64,000 nt of DNA, from NCBI GenBank assembly GCA_031458695.1, contig JAVKJW010000001.1, positions 1 to 64,000 of the forward strand, given 5' to 3'. Each line of letters starts with the position of its first letter. Within the stretch, counting starts at the first letter, position 1. Shown here piece after piece: positions 1 to 9,000 of this stretch. This stretch comes from Candidatus Thermofontivivens primus (GTDB taxonomy: Bacteria; Sysuimicrobiota; Sysuimicrobiia; Sysuimicrobiales; Thermofontiviventaceae). Made by a program: the position numbers.

Positions 1-3000
1 TCGGATGTCCCCCGGTTGTGGGTCATGAGGATGGCGATGTCATCCCCCGTGTGGGAGACCTGGCAGTCGATGAGCAGTTTCCCCTTCTCCCTCTCCACGC
101 GCTCCCGGACAATGGCCAGAAGCTCAGGGCTCGGATTGGTGTGCCCGCCAATGCTCCCAATGTCTGCCTTGATGACGCTCACGGTGATCTCCATCCTTTA
201 AACCTCCTTGGGAAGGAATCGCCTGAAGTAGTGGAGCTTCTCTCGATAGCCTCTGGGCCAGAGGAATCGGCAGGTCGCGGCAATGTTGCTCAGGAGAACG
301 TTCCCATCCTGAGGGGTGAAGGCATACCCCACCACCTCCTGGTCCGCGTGGACGTGGAGGGTGGGGAGGACCACCACTGCGTGGGTGAGGAGCCTCCCGT
401 GGAACCCGTGATCGCGTCCGAAGGAGAAAACCAGGTTCGTCATGGGCTTGTGGGTGATGGCGATGTAGGGATTTCGCACGATCCGATCCTCTGCTTCCTC
501 AGGCGTCATCGACCTCCGCATGCGCAGGTGGAAGTGGAGGACGTGCATGTACTGGGTATTGATTTGCACGGCGCTGCTAAACAACGAGAGCTCTGCCCCT
601 ACCGTCCGGAAAAGGTGATACGCATCCCGCGCGTGGTGGGTCCCCCATGGGGAATGGTGGTCGTTCACCTTGATGGCAGGGATGACGTCCACCTCCTGGC
701 CTACGTCGCTCGCCCGCCGGATACACAGGAACTTCCCCCACTCTAAGTCATAGCCGTCCCCATTCCTGGCGAGGGCGTGGACCACGGAGGCGATGCTGTG
801 GGTATTGCAGCTCAGGACCTGGATGAAGTCATCCCGCTCCCCAAGGGCTTCGTCGTTGACGCCCAAGACGTACGGCTTTCCGAACCCGAACTCCGAACCC
901 TGGGCGATGAACAACCGCCCCCCTCGAAAGCGAAGATAGAAGCGTTCCTTGTTGCGCAACCCTACACCGTCAGGGGTACAGTCGATGACGACCTTGGACC
1001 GGGCGATGGCTGTCTCTAGGCCCAGGTAATCGGGCCGCAACCCGAGCTCCTCAAAGAACCCCGCTTTCCCAGGGTCCACGCATAGCCTCGCGCCGGCCTG
1101 CACAAGGGCGGAAAGCGCCGGGCGATCCTGGAGCCTGGGTGTGTGTTTGTAGACGATCACTTCTTCTACATCCAGTTCCCTTTGCAGCGTGCAGAACAGC
1201 GTGGCGAGAGGTTCCCCGATGGTTCCTGTACCGACGATCAGGATTGTGTCCATGACACAGATCCCTCCCCCTCAGGTGTACCGCTTCCGCTCCTCCACAA
1301 GCTCCCTTGCTGCCCTGGCGATGTGGCCTGCCGTCAGGCCGTAGGCCTCCAAAAGTGCTTTCCAGGGTCCGGACTGCCCCATGCGGTCTCCGATGCCAAT
1401 GCGCAAGAGGGGTGTAGGGTGCTCCTCACAAAGAACCTCAGCCACCGCACTCCCCAGGCCCCCCACGACGGTGTGCTCCTCAGCCGTGACCACCGCTCCC
1501 GTCTTTCGGGCGCTTGCCAGGATCGCCTCCCGGTCAAGCGGCTTGACCGCCGGCACGTCGATGACCTCTGCGGAGATACCCTGCTGTGCCAGGACCTCCG
1601 CTGCATCCAGGCACATCCCCACGGTGATGCCGCACCCCAGGAGGGTCACATCCTCCCCCTCGCGGAGCAGGAGGGCTCTCCCGATGCGGAAGGGGCAGCG
1701 GGCATAGATCCTGCGGACAGCGGGCCGGCCGAGGCGGATGTATACCGGGCCTTTGTAGGCTGCGGCGGCGAACACGGCGGCCCTCGTCTGCTCCGCATCA
1801 CAAGGCACAATCACGGTCATGTTGGGCATCGCTCGCATGATGGCAATGTCGTCGATTGCCTGGTGGGTCGCCCCATCCTCTCCCACAGTGATACCGGCGT
1901 GGGAGACAACGATCTTCACGTTGGCCTGGGCGTAGGCGACGGACTGGAAGATCTGGTTGAGGGCACGCTGGGCGGCGAAGATGGCAAATGTGCTGACGAA
2001 CGGAATCTTCCCGCATTGGGCCAAGCCTGCCGCCACCCCGATCATGTGGGCCTCACACAGGCCAAGGTTGAAGAAGCGCTCGGGGAATCGACGGCCAAAC
2101 CGCTCCGTATACGTAGAGTTGGCCACGTCGGCGTCGAGGACGACGATCTCCTCCCGCTCCGTGCCCAGCTCTACAAGAGCATCGCCGTAGGCATCCCGTG
2201 TGGCCACCTCTTCCCCATCCTCACACAAAAGAAGCTCCTCCATCGCGACCCAGCTCCTTCAGGGCAAGCTCCCGCTGCTCGGGGTTTAGCGGCTTGCCAT
2301 GCCAGCCCAGGCGATCCTCCAAGAAGGAGATCCCTTTCCCCTTTTTCGTGCGGGCAATGATCACCACCGGTTTCCCCTTCACCCGCCTTGCCTCCGCGAA
2401 GACATCCAGGAGGGCGGGGATGTTGTGCCCGTCAGCCTCCAGGGCCGTCCACCCGAATGCCTCCCATTTCGCTCCAAGAGGCTCCAGGGCGCACAACTCT
2501 TCCGTTCGCGCTGACTGCTGGATCCTATTCCTGTCCACGATGGCCACGAGGTTGTCCAGGGCGTAATGGGCAGCGGACATGGCCGCCTCCCATACCTGCC
2601 CCTCCTGGCACTCCCCATCACCCAGGAGCACGTACACCCTGTAGGCACGGCCATCGAGGCGTGCTGCCAGGGCCATGCCCATCCCAACGGAAAGACCCTG
2701 CCCCAGCGACCCCGTAGACATCTCTACTCCCGGACACTTCAAGACGTCAGGGTGGCCTTGGAGCCGGGACCCAAGCCTGCGGAAGGTCTCTAGCTCCTCC
2801 TCAGGGAAGAAGCCTCGCATCGCCAATGCGGCATAGAGCGCCGGGCATCCGTGCCCTTTGGAGAGGATGAACCGGTCCCGATCGGGGTCGTCTGGCCGCA
2901 GAGGGTCGACTCTGAGCTCGGAGAAGTACAGGACGGCCATGATTTCTGCAATGGAGAGGGCGCTGGTGGCATGCCCCGAGCCAGCAGCTGTCGTCATCTC

Positions 3001-6000: not shown

Positions 6001-9000
6001 GCTCCTGCCCGGATCTCCTCCAGGTTGGCCGTGTCCAGGAATAGCAGCATCCCTCGTCCTCCTTCCTTGCTGCTCTTGCCGTCTATTCTCCAGAGGCTAG
6101 GGGCCTGGCAGCAACCCCTCTCCGGCGAAATGGGGAAGATCGTCGGTGAACGGTACCTTTCCGTCGGCAAGCGATCAAGACGGGAGGGTGAGGGGGGTGG
6201 AGGTGAGTTGACGGTTCCCCCCTGTTGTTCTAGAATCCTGACAAACAGCCGCGAGGCGGATGGGCATGGAGGAACCTGCGAGGCTCAACCTCAAAGCGCT
6301 TGTGGTCGACGATGATGAGATCAGCCGCAAAGAGCTTGTGCGCCTCATCACGAGACAGGGAGTGCACTGTGTGGACGAAACAGCCACCGCTGCCCAAGCG
6401 TTGAGCCTTCTTGTGGAGCGCTCCTACGACGTGGTCTTCCTGGACATCCAGATGCCGGGCCTCACCGGCATGGAGGCTATCCGCGTGATCAACCGCATGC
6501 CCTCGCGGCCGCACGTTGTCTTCGTGACGGCATACCCTCACTATGCTGTGGAGGCCTTTGAGGAAGCAGCCTTCGATTATCTCCTCAAGCCTGTCTCGGA
6601 GGAGCGGTTGGTCCGCACCCTCGCGCGCATTGCCCGCAGAACTGGGATGGAGGCCCCAGCTCCTCTGGACCGCCTCCCGGTCGAGGTCGGGGATCGTGTG
6701 ATCCTCCTGGATGTCTCCGAAATCCGCTACGCCGTCGCTAGGGACGATTACGCCTACGTGACCACGTACGACGCCACTTACCGCACCTCCTACACCCTCG
6801 GCGAGCTCCACCGCCGCCTCGGTCCCTCTAGGTTCCTGCGCGTCCACAGGAGCTTTCTCGTCAACATCGATCACATCCTGGAGATCCATCCGTATTTCAA
6901 AGGTACGCTCATCCTGCGCATGGATGACAAAGGGAGGACCGAGATCCCCGTAAGCCGCCGGGAGGCTCCCCGTTTCCGGATGCTCCTTGGGTGGTAAATA
7001 CCCCGGCAAAAGTCTTGACCTTTGCCGGGGCCCCTCTTGAAATCGCCTGCTCACCCGTGCGGCCCTCCTCAAAGGTTTGCTAGACTATCTTCCCGATGTG
7101 GTAGTATGGAATGCGGGGGAGAGGCACCGATGAAGCAAGTGATCAGCATCTCCCGGAGGACAGATATCCCCCGTTTCTACCTAGAGTGGCTGCGGGAAGC
7201 GCTGCAGAGAGGAGAAGTGACTTACGTGCATCCAGGGGCCGGGCCACGCACCGTCTCGCTCCTCCCCGAGCATGTGCACACCTTGGTGTTCTGGTCGAAG
7301 GATTACGGCCTCTTCCTCCGGGACGGGGTGCTCCACGAGGCCCTGAAGCGATACTCTGTCTATTTCCACTTCTCCATCACAGGCATGGGAGGATCTTTCC
7401 TGGAACCTCTCGTGCCTCCTGCAGACGTTGCCCTCGAGCAGATGAAAGCTCTCGCGCGTACCTGGGGTCCGGAACGCATCGAATGGCGGTTCGATCCGAT
7501 CCTGCATTGGGAGATCGATGGAAGAGTTTTCTCCAATGCAGCACAGTTCCAGAAACTGGCGCCTGCAGTGCGGAAGATCGGAGTTGGAAGGTGCACCTTT
7601 TCCTTTGCTACATTGTATCGGAAGGTCCATCCCCGATCGCGGCGGTTCGGGTTCCGCTATGTAGATCCAAACGACGAACAGAAGACGGAGATCCTCAAGG
7701 AGATGGTGGCTACCGCTTCCTCGCTTGGAATCACCCTGTACTCCTGTGCAGACTCTCGATGGACCGTGGTTGAGGGCATCCGGGATGCACGGTGTATTGA
7801 TGCGAACCTCCTCAGTCAGCTCCACCCCAAACACGAACCGGCTCCAGGTGGGAAGGATCCGTCCCAACGGAAAGAATGTCTCTGCACACCCAGCGTCGAC
7901 GTCGGCAGCTACACGCAGGCCTGCTCTCTTGGTTGTATGTACTGCTACGCAAACCCCAAGATCCCCGCGCAGCTGGTGCAACGTTTGGGCGAGGAAGGAG
8001 GTGTCGCAGCTGGCGCGTTGTGAACCCGTGCGGAGCGCGTTTATGACTTACGACCCCTCCAAGAGAAACGGGTGGGCCCGCGGCCTCATTCACTTCCACA
8101 CAGAGTTTTCGGACGGTGGCGCCTCTGTCCAGAAGGCCGCGGAGATCGCCCGTGCCCACGGCTATGACTTCCTCATCGTCACCGACCACCTCCAGGACCT
8201 CAAGCTCAAGAAAGGGAGGAGCCTCCAGGAGTACATCATCGCCTGTGATACAGCCTCCAAAGAGACCGGCACCCTCGTGATCCCGGGTGGGGAGATCGAA
8301 GTGGACTGGGAAAACCCAAGGACCGGAGACTCCTCACAGGCGCACACCCTTGCCTTCTCCATCCGGCATCTCATCTCGGAGTTCGACTGGACAACGCCAG
8401 GGGAGAAGCCCTACGCGGGATGGACAGACAACGCGGGAGGACGCGGCACAATCCTCGCCGTCCAGCAGAAGCTCATGCGGTACGGCGTCCCGCCAGCAGC
8501 CAGCCACCAGTTCCAGCACGCCTATCTGGGAAGCCCGATTCATCCCGCGGAGCATGCAGATTACCGCTACGACTTGGAGCGCATCGGGTCGAGCCGGTTG
8601 TTGGATTTCTTTTACTCGGGAGTGATCGATGCAGCGCATGAACCAGAGGATTTCGCCCTCTACCTCTCCTGCCTGGACAATCCATCGGAGATATCCCCGG
8701 CAATTTACGCGAGTTGCGATTACCATTACGGTCCGGAAACGCTCCGGGAGCTTCTCCATCAACATCGGGAGGAGATCGTAGCTAGGCTCCGCCAGATCGT
8801 GGTGAAATGGCGCCGTGTGATCGGCGTCCCCCTCTGCTGGCTCCTTCGGTGGCAACCTGATATTGCTTTAAGCTTGTTCGAACACCTGGGACGTCGACTT
8901 TTCGCCTTGTTTCGGACGATACCTCCCGTCCAGTTCGCGGCAGAACAACTCTCCCACGCTACATATGTGTATCTCGGTGACAGTGCACTCACTGAAGAGA

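What a model noticed while it worked through the whole genome (the two positions that open the first line are those of the whole stretch)
1..6050. Self-contained Calvin-cycle operon: small-subunit-less form I RuBisCO with transaldolase, FBP aldolase/phosphatase and a [...]
One minus-strand operon holds transaldolase, a form I-like RbcL (no rbcS anywhere), cyanobacterial-type phosphoribulokinase, a two-piece transketolase, a divergent archaeal-type GAPDH-like protein and a bifunctional FBP aldolase/phosphatase that runs off the contig. I read it as a complete transaldolase-type Calvin cycle driven by a RuBisCO without small subunits, so that Thermofontivivens is a CBB autotroph, contrary to the published view that the family's pathway is incomplete. 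It would be the first such cycle joined to the archaeal-type FBP aldolase/phosphatase.
Evidence so far: Genes g00007-g00001. Swiss-Prot: RbcL 59.8% to Synechococcus CbbL over 455 aa; PRK 46.9% to Synechocystis; transaldolase 55.8% to Thermosipho; g00002 28% to archaeal GAPDH with no Pfam row; g00001 58% to the N-terminus of Thermus FBP aldolase/phosphatase and g01971 at the end of C37 matches residues 280-363, so C37 probably joins C1 here. No RbcS, class I/II aldolase or SBPase rows in pfam.tsv. The phylum paper limits RbcS to three Sysuimicrobiaceae MAGs and takes the complete CBB set to be theirs alone (PMC11604079, passage read, call 8).
(Added by a program. Inside this text positions count along the whole contig: contig position 1 is position 1 of the stretch shown here. 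"Call 12" and the like, gene names such as g00115 and contig names such as C1 are that model's own, and its searches are not shown. The text may have been shortened before it was handed on; [...] marks where a part breaks off. The agent that wrote the report below was given it as the finding of a first reader that could run no searches.)

Follow-up and report, generated by a model that had tools for sequence, protein, structure and literature searches.

The report
Calvin-cycle operon with form I'' RuBisCO
A hot-spring bacterium carries one tight seven-gene operon for a small-subunit-free RuBisCO and an unusual transaldolase-type Calvin cycle; the enzyme itself is already known and solved, but its host and gene neighbourhood seem not to have been described.

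Summary
Window 1-6050 (minus strand) encodes tal-rbcL-prk-tktN-tktC-gapL-fbpAP, tightly packed. The same order occurs in three other lineages, where fbpAP is complete and is followed by the genes of contig C37. This confirms that C37 joins C1.

The RuBisCO is not new. It is 453 of 456 residues identical to PDB 8U66 ("Firmicutes Rubisco", 8 chains). On a tree it branches at the reconstructed "last common ancestor of Form I'' and Form I", outside small-subunit-bearing form I. It is therefore form I'', a known small-subunit-free type.

No rbcS, class II aldolase, class I/II FBPase or SBPase was found in this 96%-complete genome. PGK, GAPDH, TPI and RPE lie elsewhere. RpiB is missing, but synteny places it in the gap off the start of C22.

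The operon carries second copies of Tal, split TK and FBPap. It also carries a gene of a large, unnamed family related to type II GAPDH.

Best reading (0.7): a working transaldolase-variant Calvin cycle. The published "incomplete without RbcS" inference is then unsafe. The claim of a first pairing with FBP aldolase/phosphatase could not be verified. No expression or activity data exist.

The parts
3..194 (-). fbpAP, 5' end (residues 1-64) of the operon's own FBP aldolase/phosphatase; it runs off the contig start
   Evidence: PF01950 scores 75.2 bits over profile positions 1-63 of 361, and NF041126 77.1 bits. The C-terminal piece (residues 280-360) lies at the end of C37. The gene is complete in relatives L012, L116, L117 and L118.
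198..1253 (-). gapL: 351-aa divergent protein related to type II (archaeal) GAPDH
   Evidence: No Pfam hit, and NF003251 scores 81.3 bits against a cut-off of 185. Invariant GTGTIG, SCNTH, RRxxD and GTHHAxD motifs in 25 homologs. The model has pLDDT 84.5. The best folds are archaeal GAPDHs at TM 0.78-0.84.
1272..2243 (-). tktC: C-terminal subunit of the split transketolase
   Evidence: PF02779 172.4 bits, PF02780 121.5 bits, and NF004559 positions 312-625 at 322.1 bits.
2221..3150 (-). tktN: N-terminal (ThDP-binding) subunit of the split transketolase. The likely start is the ATG at 3087, which overlaps the end of prk.
   Evidence: PF00456 183.8 bits, and NF004559 positions 14-282 at 372.5 bits. 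Relatives align from residue 22 onward.
3050..3952 (-). prk: phosphoribulokinase, 300 aa
   Evidence: NF005655 scores 264.5 bits against a cut-off of 236. 6GVE PRK scores 191.8 bits over residues 6-185. The P-loop reads GDSGAGKST where the aligned cyanobacterial PRK has GDSGCGKST.
3966..5336 (-). rbcL: form I'' RuBisCO large subunit, 456 aa
   Evidence: 453 of 456 residues identical to PDB 8U66, titled 'Firmicutes Rubisco'. It forms a clade of 3 with 100% support, outside small-subunit-bearing form I. Read against spinach numbering recalled from memory, the catalytic residues are present: K161, K163, K187, D189, E190, H280, R281, H313, K320 and S365.
5382..6050 (-). tal: short (222 aa) transaldolase, first gene of the operon
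   Evidence: TIGR00875 scores 268.4 bits against a cut-off of 245.95. T. maritima transaldolase 1VPX scores 256.9 bits, E. coli FSA 1L6W 126.5. A Phe stands in SIFLGR, where the aligned T. maritima transaldolase also has Phe; that FSA has Tyr at this position is recalled.
6051..6259 (.). divergent intergenic region between tal and the LytTR regulator gene; presumed promoter region
   Evidence: Sequence read. One sigma-70-like site on the + strand at 6208-6236 faces the regulator gene, which is no more than chance gives.
6260..6997 (+). LytTR-type response regulator, divergently transcribed; candidate regulator of the operon
   Evidence: PF00072 89.3 bits and PF04397 89.9 bits. The same position and orientation occur in L108, L116, L117 and L118, at 80-91% identity.

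Best explanation
The region is a dedicated cbb operon, tal-rbcL-prk-tktN-tktC-gapL-fbpAP. It encodes the transaldolase variant of the Calvin-Benson-Bassham cycle, driven by a form I'' RuBisCO, which is an L8 enzyme without small subunits.

Proposed flow:
1. PRK makes ribulose-1,5-bisphosphate, and RbcL carboxylates it.
2. PGK (C53), together with GapL and/or the classical GAPDH (C53), reduces 3-phosphoglycerate to triose phosphate. TPI (C53) interconverts the trioses.
3. FBP aldolase/phosphatase turns two triose phosphates irreversibly into fructose 6-phosphate.
4. The split transketolase and the transaldolase rebuild pentose phosphates without sedoheptulose bisphosphate.
5. RPE (C5) and an RpiB that is probably unassembled finish the regeneration.

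Shown: gene identities, gene order, conservation of the operon, near-identity of RbcL to a solved octameric enzyme, and the absence of rbcS and SBPase-type genes.

Inferred: co-transcription, GapL's substrate and cofactor, control by the neighbouring LytTR regulator, and autotrophic growth itself.
For: - **Identities.** Every operon gene except gapL and the truncated fbpAP passes curated cut-offs or scores strongly against its family.
- **RbcL.** It is 453 of 456 residues identical to 8U66, which has 8 chains of one sequence. The entry is titled 'Firmicutes Rubisco'. Read against spinach numbering recalled from memory, the catalytic residues are present.
- **Tree.** In a tree of 114 rows, the window RbcL with G119 and P0125 forms a clade with 100% support. 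It sits beside the synthetic protein whose PDB title reads 'last common ancestor of Form I'' and Form I'. It lies outside the 100%-supported clade that holds the 'SSU-bearing Form I' ancestor and 25 long natural RbcLs.
- **No small subunit.** No rbcS was found in G000 (96.34% complete) or in G119/G001.
- **Conserved order.** The same gene order occurs in G119/L012 (RbcL 85% identical), L116/L118 (93%) and L117 (92%). fbpAP is complete there. In L116, L117 and L118 it is followed by the C37 genes; in L012 it is followed by rpe.
- **Accession spacing.** NCBI accessions of RbcL and GapL lie exactly 4 apart in 7 MAG pairs.
- **Extra copies.** Tal (57% identical copy on C22), split TK (60% and 52%, at C1:137460-139233) and FBPap (C41) all exist elsewhere in the genome. 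The operon copies are therefore additional and dedicated.
- **Rest of the cycle.** gap-pgk-tpi and rpe are present.
- **No SBPase route.** No class II FBA, class I FBPase or GlpX was found.
- **True transaldolase.** Tal scores 257 bits against true transaldolases and 127 against FSA, with the Phe at the diagnostic site.
- **Energy context.** SoxYZ lies on C37, and a sulfite-oxidase-type Mo enzyme sits beside the operon in relatives.
Against: - Neither RpiB nor RpiA is found in the assembly. The gap argument rests on synteny only.
- The operon's fbpAP is not assembled in this genome; residues 65-279 are missing.
- GapL fails both type II GAPDH models. Of 30 genomes that carry its family, 25 also have a canonical GAPDH, and 15 of 16 checked have no RuBisCO. 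Its role in the cycle is therefore inferred from position only.
- There is no transcript, protein or labelling evidence for this operon. The phylum paper's enrichment transcripts were interpreted as WLP and RGP, not CBB (passage read).
- Only 2 of 94 species genomes of the phylum carry this RbcL. The trait is patchy.
- A LacD-type aldolase exists, and FBPap's action on sedoheptulose bisphosphate is untested. An SBP route is therefore not strictly excluded.
Confidence: 0.7

Rival explanations
1. The operon serves mixotrophic or heterotrophic metabolism rather than autotrophy. PRK and RuBisCO would re-fix CO2 or act as an electron sink while sugars are metabolised (a RuBisCO shunt), with Tal and TK feeding pentoses.
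For: The genome has sugar ABC transporters, a second RPE in a sugar cluster and a PfkB kinase. It also has an aa3 oxidase for respiration. RuBisCO is patchy in the phylum, at 2 of 94 genomes. The phylum paper assigns autotrophy in this family to the reductive glycine pathway (passages read).
Against: A shunt needs neither a gluconeogenic FBP aldolase/phosphatase nor an extra GAPDH-type gene. Both are in the operon in all four lineages. FBPap is a one-way enzyme toward F6P (established knowledge, recalled). Dedicated duplicates of Tal, TK and FBPap resemble autotrophs' cbb operons.
Confidence: 0.2
2. The pathway is incomplete or inactive in this lineage, as published. On this reading the RuBisCO lacks a partner (RbcS) or the cycle lacks steps, and the genes are remnants or serve another role.
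For: No RbcS and no RPI are found in the assembly. Two phylum papers call CBB complete only where rbcLS occurs (passages read).
Against: A 99.3% identical protein crystallised as a single-sequence 8-chain assembly. A preprint's introduction states that forms I' and I'' need no small subunit and are homo-octamers (section read). All seven reading frames are intact and conserved at 73-93% identity across four lineages. RpiB is present in 72 of 94 phylum genomes, including G119, and its upstream synteny runs off the start of C22.
Confidence: 0.05
3. The cycle uses sedoheptulose-1,7-bisphosphate after all. FBP aldolase/phosphatase, or the LacD-type aldolase together with FBPap, would make and hydrolyse SBP. 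Transaldolase would be auxiliary.
For: A LacD-family class I aldolase is present. Two FBPap copies exist. Nothing here tests FBPap's substrate range.
Against: Transaldolase is the first gene of the operon in all four lineages, and it is an extra copy besides the one on C22. No SBPase-type FBPase was found.
Confidence: 0.05

Closest known systems
Form I'' RuBisCO (PDB 8U66, 'Firmicutes Rubisco'; described by West-Roberts 2021, Schulz 2022 and Liu 2023; the last two papers were not held)
   Same: 453 of 456 residues are identical. There is no small subunit gene in the genome. The tree position is at the form I''/form I ancestor node.
   Different: Nothing in the enzyme differs. [quoted passage not shown]
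[quoted passage not shown] 2019, Thermodesulfobium acidiphilum; known to me from citations only)
   Same: RuBisCO plus PRK, with no SBPase, and transaldolase closing the regeneration.
   Different: That case uses a form III RuBisCO, according to its title (seen in reference lists). Here the enzyme is form I'', and all the non-housekeeping steps sit in one operon. Which aldolase and phosphatase the published case uses I could not check.
Form I' RuBisCO loci of Anaerolineales (Banda 2020; PDB 6URA)
   Same: A small-subunit-free octameric relative of form I, encoded beside prk (passage in 10.1101/2021.08.23.457424).
   Different: RbcL is only about 64-72% identical. According to that preprint, those loci carry cbbR. 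Here a LytTR response regulator sits in that place.
Classical bacterial cbb operons (cbbLS-cbbFPTAGK type; own knowledge)
   Same: One operon holds RuBisCO, PRK, transketolase, a GAPDH-type gene and an FBP-forming/hydrolysing function, as extra copies of housekeeping genes.
   Different: There is no rbcS. Class II aldolase and class I/II FBPase are replaced by one FBP aldolase/phosphatase. Transaldolase is added, transketolase is split in two genes, GAPDH is of a divergent type II-like family, and there is no LysR-type CbbR next door.
Archaeal gluconeogenic pair: type II GAPDH and FBP aldolase/phosphatase (Say and Fuchs 2010; recalled)
   Same: gapL and fbpAP are adjacent, 3 bases apart, and both have archaeal-type folds or families.
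   Different: GapL falls below the type II GAPDH model cut-offs. Its family is spread over many bacterial phyla as well as archaea.

Membership tests
Form I'' RuBisCO | RbcL branches with form I-related sequences but outside small-subunit-bearing form I | tested here: met
   Tree of 114 rows. The window clade has 100% support, sits next to the synthetic 'LCA of Form I'' and Form I', and is excluded from the 100%-supported clade of the 'SSU-bearing Form I' ancestor plus 25 RbcLs. It was a quick search with a very long outgroup branch, so the branching order among the three groups is unresolved.
Form I'' RuBisCO | No rbcS in the genome | tested here: met
   PF00101 gave no match at E<=1 in G000 (96.34% complete) or in G119/G001. 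The control passed its cut-off in Synechococcus.
Form I'' RuBisCO | Catalytic residues of a bona fide carboxylase | tested here: met
   KPK (K161, K163), K187-D189-E190, H280-R281-H284, H313, K320 and S365-G366-G367 are present and invariant or nearly so in 30 sequences. The mapping to spinach numbering is recalled.
Form I'' RuBisCO | Homo-octamer (L8), active without a small subunit | not testable with these tools
   8U66, which is 99.3% identical, holds 8 chains of one sequence. A preprint states that form I'' is homo-octameric.
Transaldolase-variant CBB cycle | RuBisCO and PRK present | tested here: met
Transaldolase-variant CBB cycle | Transaldolase present; SBPase-type enzymes absent | tested here: met
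   Tal is a true transaldolase. There is no PF00316 or PF03320 hit and no PF01116 hit. The PF00274 control was silent. A LacD-type aldolase is present.
Transaldolase-variant CBB cycle | All remaining steps present (PGK, GAPDH, TPI, FBP formation and hydrolysis, TK, RPE, RPI) | tested here: inconclusive
   All steps were found except RPI. RpiB is expected in the gap off the start of C22.
Transaldolase-variant CBB cycle | Autotrophic CO2 fixation through it | not testable with these tools
   There are no activity or labelling data.
FBP aldolase/phosphatase (PF01950 / NF041126) | Full-length match over the curated cut-off | tested here: inconclusive
   The window piece covers only residues 1-64 (77.1 bits against a cut-off of 520). 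The C41 paralog is full length at 536 bits. The orthologs in relatives' operons are full length at 79-82% identity to it.
Type II (archaeal) phosphorylating GAPDH (NF003251 / TIGR01546) | Score over the curated cut-off | tested here: not met
   81.3 bits against 185, and 56.5 against 232.9. There is no Pfam Gp_dh hit.
Type II (archaeal) phosphorylating GAPDH (NF003251 / TIGR01546) | Fold, catalytic Cys in SCNT, the HH motif and the RR phosphate site | tested here: met
   Foldseek's top hits are 1CF2, 2YYY, 2CZC and 1B7G at TM 0.78-0.84. C149, H206/H207 and R179/R180 are invariant and align to the archaeal enzymes. The roles of these residues are recalled.
Class II (cyanobacterial/plant-type) phosphoribulokinase | Match to NF005655 over its cut-off | tested here: met
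   264.5 bits against 236, but over profile positions 3-189 of 326 only. The P-loop has Ala where the aligned cyanobacterial PRK (6GVE) has Cys. That this Cys is the redox-regulatory one is recalled.

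The most novel reading that the evidence does not exclude
This operon may preserve the Calvin cycle as it was in the lineage that gave rise to form I RuBisCO. In that version the cycle had no small subunit and ran on transaldolase, a split transketolase, the one-way FBP aldolase/phosphatase and a GAPDH of a so far unnamed class. 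That class, GapL, is found in at least 592 species genomes of archaea and bacteria and is mostly labelled 'hypothetical'. GapL would then be a third, unrecognised class of anabolic GAPDH. The SBPase route would be a later addition to the cycle.
Probability: 0.15. Interest if true: 0.8.

Novelty: new variant of a known kind. Interest (0 to 1): 0.5.

Why it matters
Form I'' is one of the closest known relatives of the RuBisCO that fixes most carbon on Earth. It has been studied as an isolated protein labelled 'Firmicutes'.

Placing it in a near-complete genome gives the enzyme a physiological setting, with these features:
- a conserved seven-gene operon and a candidate regulator;
- sulfur-oxidation genes next door;
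- an aa3 oxidase in the same window.

This also makes some questions testable. What kind of Calvin cycle ran alongside small-subunit-free RuBisCO? Did it run in the presence of oxygen?

The result shows that scoring 'CBB complete' by the presence of rbcS, as two phylum papers do, undercounts autotrophs.

Finally, the operon gives the first functional lead for a very widespread, unnamed GAPDH-like family.

Tried and rejected
- **RNA evidence.** No RNA holder was listed among 9 runs, and the DNA holders are hot-spring metagenomes.
- **Bridging the C1/C37 gap.** An exact 37-base pattern from the gapL-fbpAP junction found nothing in metagenome contigs. The protein-based scan then succeeded.
- **GapL neighbourhoods.**
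  - I examined 87 loci and annotated the 14 commonest neighbour families. They are lineage-specific housekeeping genes: TilS/HPRT/FtsH, urocanase and histidine ammonia-lyase, Ccm genes, a metallo-beta-lactamase.
  - The only functional clue is PGK directly upstream in 5 of 80 loci, and nearby in a sixth.
  - The PRK query was out of frame. It was corrected.
- **GapL as a RuBisCO-linked family: rejected.** 15 of 16 genomes carrying it have no RuBisCO.
- **C41 as a strain variant of the operon's fbpAP: rejected.** The sequence upstream of the start codon and the C-terminal tail both differ.
- **Papers not held.** Liu 2023, Frolov 2019.
- **Prior pairing of FBPap with the variant.** 'transaldolase variant' plus 'aldolase phosphatase' gave 0 papers, but a slash cannot be searched. 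'K01622' / 'Calvin' / 'bifunctional fructose' gave nothing relevant among the 20 listed of 61. Thermus CBB clusters use class II aldolase and FBPase.
- **Other.** The supplements of the phylum paper (Table S5, Fig. S17) were not read. They may list per-MAG CBB genes and the RbcL tree.

Full report
**1. What is there**

The first 6,050 bases of the window hold seven reading frames on the minus strand. Searches against Pfam and NCBIfam identify them as follows.

| Gene | Coordinates | Key scores |
|---|---|---|
| tal (transaldolase) | 5385-6050 | TIGR00875 268.4 bits, cut-off 245.95 |
| rbcL (RuBisCO large subunit, 456 aa) | 3969-5336 | NF003252 689.5, cut-off 438; the form III model stays below its cut-off (453.1 against 497.45) |
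| prk (phosphoribulokinase, 300 aa) | 3053-3952 | NF005655 264.5, cut-off 236 |
| tktN (split transketolase, N half) | 2224-3087/3150 | PF00456 183.8 |
| tktC (split transketolase, C half) | 1275-2243 | PF02779 172.4; PF02780 121.5 |
| gapL (351 aa) | 201-1253 | no Pfam hit; type II GAPDH models 81.3 against 185 and 56.5 against 232.9 |
| fbpAP (first 64 residues) | 3-194 | PF01950 75.2, profile positions 1-63 of 361 |

- The fbpAP fragment runs off the contig.
- The genes are separated by -35 to +45 bases.
- Terminator-like sites are no more frequent than in shuffles (4 found against a mean of 3.4).
- The tal start at 6050 has a strong ribosome-binding site.
- Upstream, transcribed the other way, lie a LytTR-type response regulator (6260-6997) and a DUF1848 gene.

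**2. The RuBisCO is a known enzyme**

- Against the PDB sequences the RbcL scores 1056.8 bits to 8U66 chain A (456 aa, 8 chains).
- The alignment shows three differences in 456 residues: T221A, D245E and V258A.
- A model built from 30 sequences (pLDDT 87.9) matches 8U66 best (Z 55.8, rmsd 1.3). That search also gave the entry titles:
  - 8U66 is 'Firmicutes Rubisco', released 2023-11-22.
  - 7QSV is the 'last common ancestor of Form I'' and Form I'.
  - 7QSW is the 'last common ancestor of SSU-bearing Form I'.
- In the 5.8-billion-protein search, natural relatives above 72% identity are few:
  - the protein's own 99% cluster of 17 members;
  - an 87% cluster labelled Armatimonadota.
- The phylum genome scan added an 85% partial sequence in G119. 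The synthetic ancestors sit at 81-82%.

I built a tree of 114 rows. It held 111 of the 120 proteins listed. I left out five fused Musa proteins, the 99% cluster representative and three redundant synthetic constructs. I added the window RbcL, the G119 partial sequence and a Bathyarchaeota outgroup.

- The window RbcL, G119 and the 87% protein form a clade with 100% SH-aLRT support.
- The clade sits at an unresolved node beside the AncL-type construct.
- It lies outside a 100%-supported clade made of the AncLS-type construct and 25 long (471-487 aa) RbcLs.
- It also lies outside an 80-row clade of mostly Chloroflexi-type sequences.

This is the position defined as form I''. The tree came from a quick search, and the outgroup branch is very long. 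I therefore claim the groupings but not their order. A 2026 preprint also finds that order unresolved (10.64898/2026.09.21.753380, section 12). The carboxylase active-site residues are all present; their mapping to spinach numbering is from memory.

**3. No small subunit, and why that does not matter**

PF00101 finds nothing in this genome at E<=1 (96.34% complete, 0.57% contamination). It finds nothing in the second genome with the operon either. The preprint's introduction states that forms I', I'' and I-alpha need no small subunit, and that I' and I'' are homo-octamers by experiment. The eight identical chains of 8U66 agree with this.

[quoted passage not shown] A second phylum paper counts CBB as complete only with rbcLS (PMC11962464, passage). 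That criterion does not apply to this enzyme.

**4. The rest of the cycle**

Found elsewhere in the genome:
- a gap-pgk-tpi cluster on C53;
- two RPE genes, on C5 and C34;
- a complete second FBPap at C41:10817-11902.

Not found:
- class II aldolase, class I FBPase and GlpX;
- RpiB and RpiA.

The class I (PF00274) search was uninformative because its control was silent. A DeoC-family search found a LacD-type class I aldolase on C15 and DeoC on C12. 'No aldolase' is therefore not quite right, but no SBPase exists to use its product.

RpiB occurs in 72 of 94 species genomes of the phylum, G119 included. Two of the 94, G047 and G055, are unpublished and both have it. In three relatives the 1.3 kb upstream of rpiB maps to C22:1496 down to 127, running toward the contig start. 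The gene would therefore begin just beyond the assembled sequence.

**5. The contig join and the two FBPap genes**

The C1 fragment and the C37 fragment (residues 280-360) are 95% and 92% identical to the C41 gene. They differ from it upstream of the start codon and in the C-terminal tail. These are two paralogs with a near-identical core, which explains the assembly break.

A protein-based scan of metagenome contigs returned three long contigs: L116, L117 and L118. L116 and L118 give identical figures and may be one sequence filed twice. All three read as follows:
1. DUF1848 and the LytTR regulator, on the opposite strand;
2. tal-rbcL-prk-tktN-tktC-gapL-fbpAP, with fbpAP complete (367 residues aligned);
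3. a convergent sulfite-oxidase-type molybdoenzyme, plus PEP carboxylase in L117;
4. the histidine kinase, LuxR regulator and SoxYZ genes that lie next to the FBPap fragment on C37.

RbcL in these contigs is 92-93% identical to the window's. C37 therefore joins C1.

A more distant genome (G119, apparently the same as G001) shows the same operon across two abutting contigs: regulator, tal and rbcL (85%) on one, then the end of rbcL, prk, tktN, tktC, gapL (73%), a complete fbpAP and rpe on the other. RbcL and GapL accession numbers lie exactly four apart in seven MAG pairs. This fits the same order but is only an inference.

**6. A dedicated module**

tblastn of the operon proteins against the whole genome finds housekeeping paralogs of Tal (C22, 57%), of both transketolase halves (C1:137460-139233, 60% and 52%) and of FBPap (C41). 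The operon copies are therefore extra. This is the pattern of cbb operons in facultative autotrophs (own knowledge).

- **Tal** is a true transaldolase. It scores 256.9 bits to T. maritima 1VPX and 126.5 to E. coli FSA 1L6W. It keeps a Phe where the aligned transaldolase 1VPX also has Phe; that FSA has Tyr there is recalled.
- **PRK** matches cyanobacterial PRK over residues 6-185 only. It has Ala in the P-loop where the aligned cyanobacterial PRK has Cys; that this Cys is the redox-regulatory one is recalled.

**7. GapL**

| Question | Result |
|---|---|
| How large is the family? | 5,550 proteins at E<=1e-5 among 8,000 scored candidates; at least 592 species genomes |
| Where does it occur? 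| Thermoplasmatota, Bathyarchaeia, Marinimicrobia, Acidobacteriota, Bipolaricaulota, Fraserbacteria and others, mostly named 'hypothetical' |
| How conserved is it? | 25 members share 69% mean column identity, with invariant GTGTIG, SCNTH, RRxxD, GTHHAxD, QGSEFGFGK and TPQDGN |
| What does it resemble? | pLDDT 84.5; archaeal type II GAPDHs at TM 0.78-0.84 and 19-22% identity; catalytic Cys and His pair align |
| Is it linked to RuBisCO? | No: 15 of 16 carrier genomes lack RuBisCO |
| Does it replace GAPDH? | No: 25 of 30 carriers also have a canonical GAPDH over the cut-off |
| Is there a gene-neighbour clue? | PGK directly upstream in 5 of 80 loci; otherwise lineage-specific housekeeping genes |

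My reading is that GapL is a phosphorylating GAPDH of a divergent type II-like class, recruited here to the place that cbbG holds in other cbb operons. This is inferred from position and chemistry only.

**8. Mechanism and rivals**

The most economical reading is a transaldolase-variant Calvin cycle (confidence 0.7).
- A CO2-recapture or redox-sink role in mixotrophy (0.2) does not explain the one-way FBPap and the GAPDH-type gene in the operon.
- The published 'incomplete' view (0.05) rests on a criterion that fails for this enzyme class.
- An SBP route through FBPap or LacD (0.05) is not excluded, because no substrate data exist.

Points against autotrophy:
- RPI is unassembled.
- The trait is patchy: 2 of 94 phylum genomes carry this RbcL, and 14 others carry only 30-36% identical RuBisCO-like proteins.
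- The enrichment transcripts in the phylum paper were read as WLP and RGP.
- No RNA run holds the stretch.

**9. Novelty**

- The enzyme is already known and solved.
- The transaldolase variant is published; 39 library papers hold both 'transaldolase variant' and 'Calvin'.
- What I did not find in print is the genomic context and host of form I''. [quoted passage not shown] The PDB entry calls the enzyme 'Firmicutes'. The 11 papers that hold any of the three phylum, family or genus names searched (9 listed) include only the two phylum studies that bear on CBB.
- Nor did I find this enzyme set in one operon: Tal, split TK, a type II-like GAPDH and FBPap. These searches are limited. The slash in 'aldolase/phosphatase' cannot be searched, and Frolov 2019 and Liu 2023 are not held.
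- I therefore rate the finding a new variant of a known kind, of moderate interest.

Noticed in passing
window 42213-46151 (+): An aa3-type cytochrome c oxidase cluster: COX2, COX1 (517 bits) and two COX3-like genes. It lies 36 kb from a RuBisCO type that a preprint infers to occur predominantly in anaerobes (10.1101/2021.08.23.457424, abstract). This suggests the host respires oxygen.
   Followed up: no
G000 C41:10817-11902 versus window 3-194 and C37:16509-16787: Two FBP aldolase/phosphatase paralogs are 92-95% identical at their ends, while the other operon duplicates are only 52-60% identical to their housekeeping copies. This points to a recent duplication or to gene conversion.
   Followed up: partly
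window 6260-6997 (+), and L108, L116-L118: A LytTR-type response regulator sits divergently upstream of the cbb operon in all four lineages, at 80-91% identity. A LysR-type CbbR is reported beside form I' and I-alpha loci instead. No cognate kinase was identified.
   Followed up: partly
G000 C37:13217-16435; L116 12646-17302; L117 12217-20371: Genes downstream of the operon are a GAF histidine kinase, a LuxR response regulator and a SoxY-SoxZ fusion. Relatives add a convergent sulfite-oxidase-type molybdoenzyme, and L117 adds PEP carboxylase. This hints at sulfur-driven lithotrophy linked to the operon.
   Followed up: partly
L013-L091 and L119-L126 (GapL family loci): The GapL family occurs in at least 592 species genomes across archaea and many bacterial phyla. 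It has no Pfam family and is mostly labelled 'hypothetical'. In the seven Thermoplasmatota-type genomes checked (G002-G008), five hold a canonical GAPDH scoring about 215-225 bits on PF02800, a level I take to be type I.
   Followed up: partly
G000 C15:7578-8393 (L128): A LacD-type class I tagatose/fructose-bisphosphate aldolase (NF009498, 341 bits). It is probably the catabolic aldolase of a genome that otherwise has only the one-way FBPap.
   Followed up: no
window 27397-32924 (-) and 39789-41459 (-): Several long reading frames of 277-557 aa have no Pfam family at E<=1e-6. They were not examined, and some may not be genes.
   Followed up: no
phylum scan, L094-L107: Fourteen other genomes of the phylum hold only 30-36% identical RuBisCO-like proteins. 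Two of these matches contain in-frame TGA codons (G084 has 1, G075 has 2).
   Followed up: no
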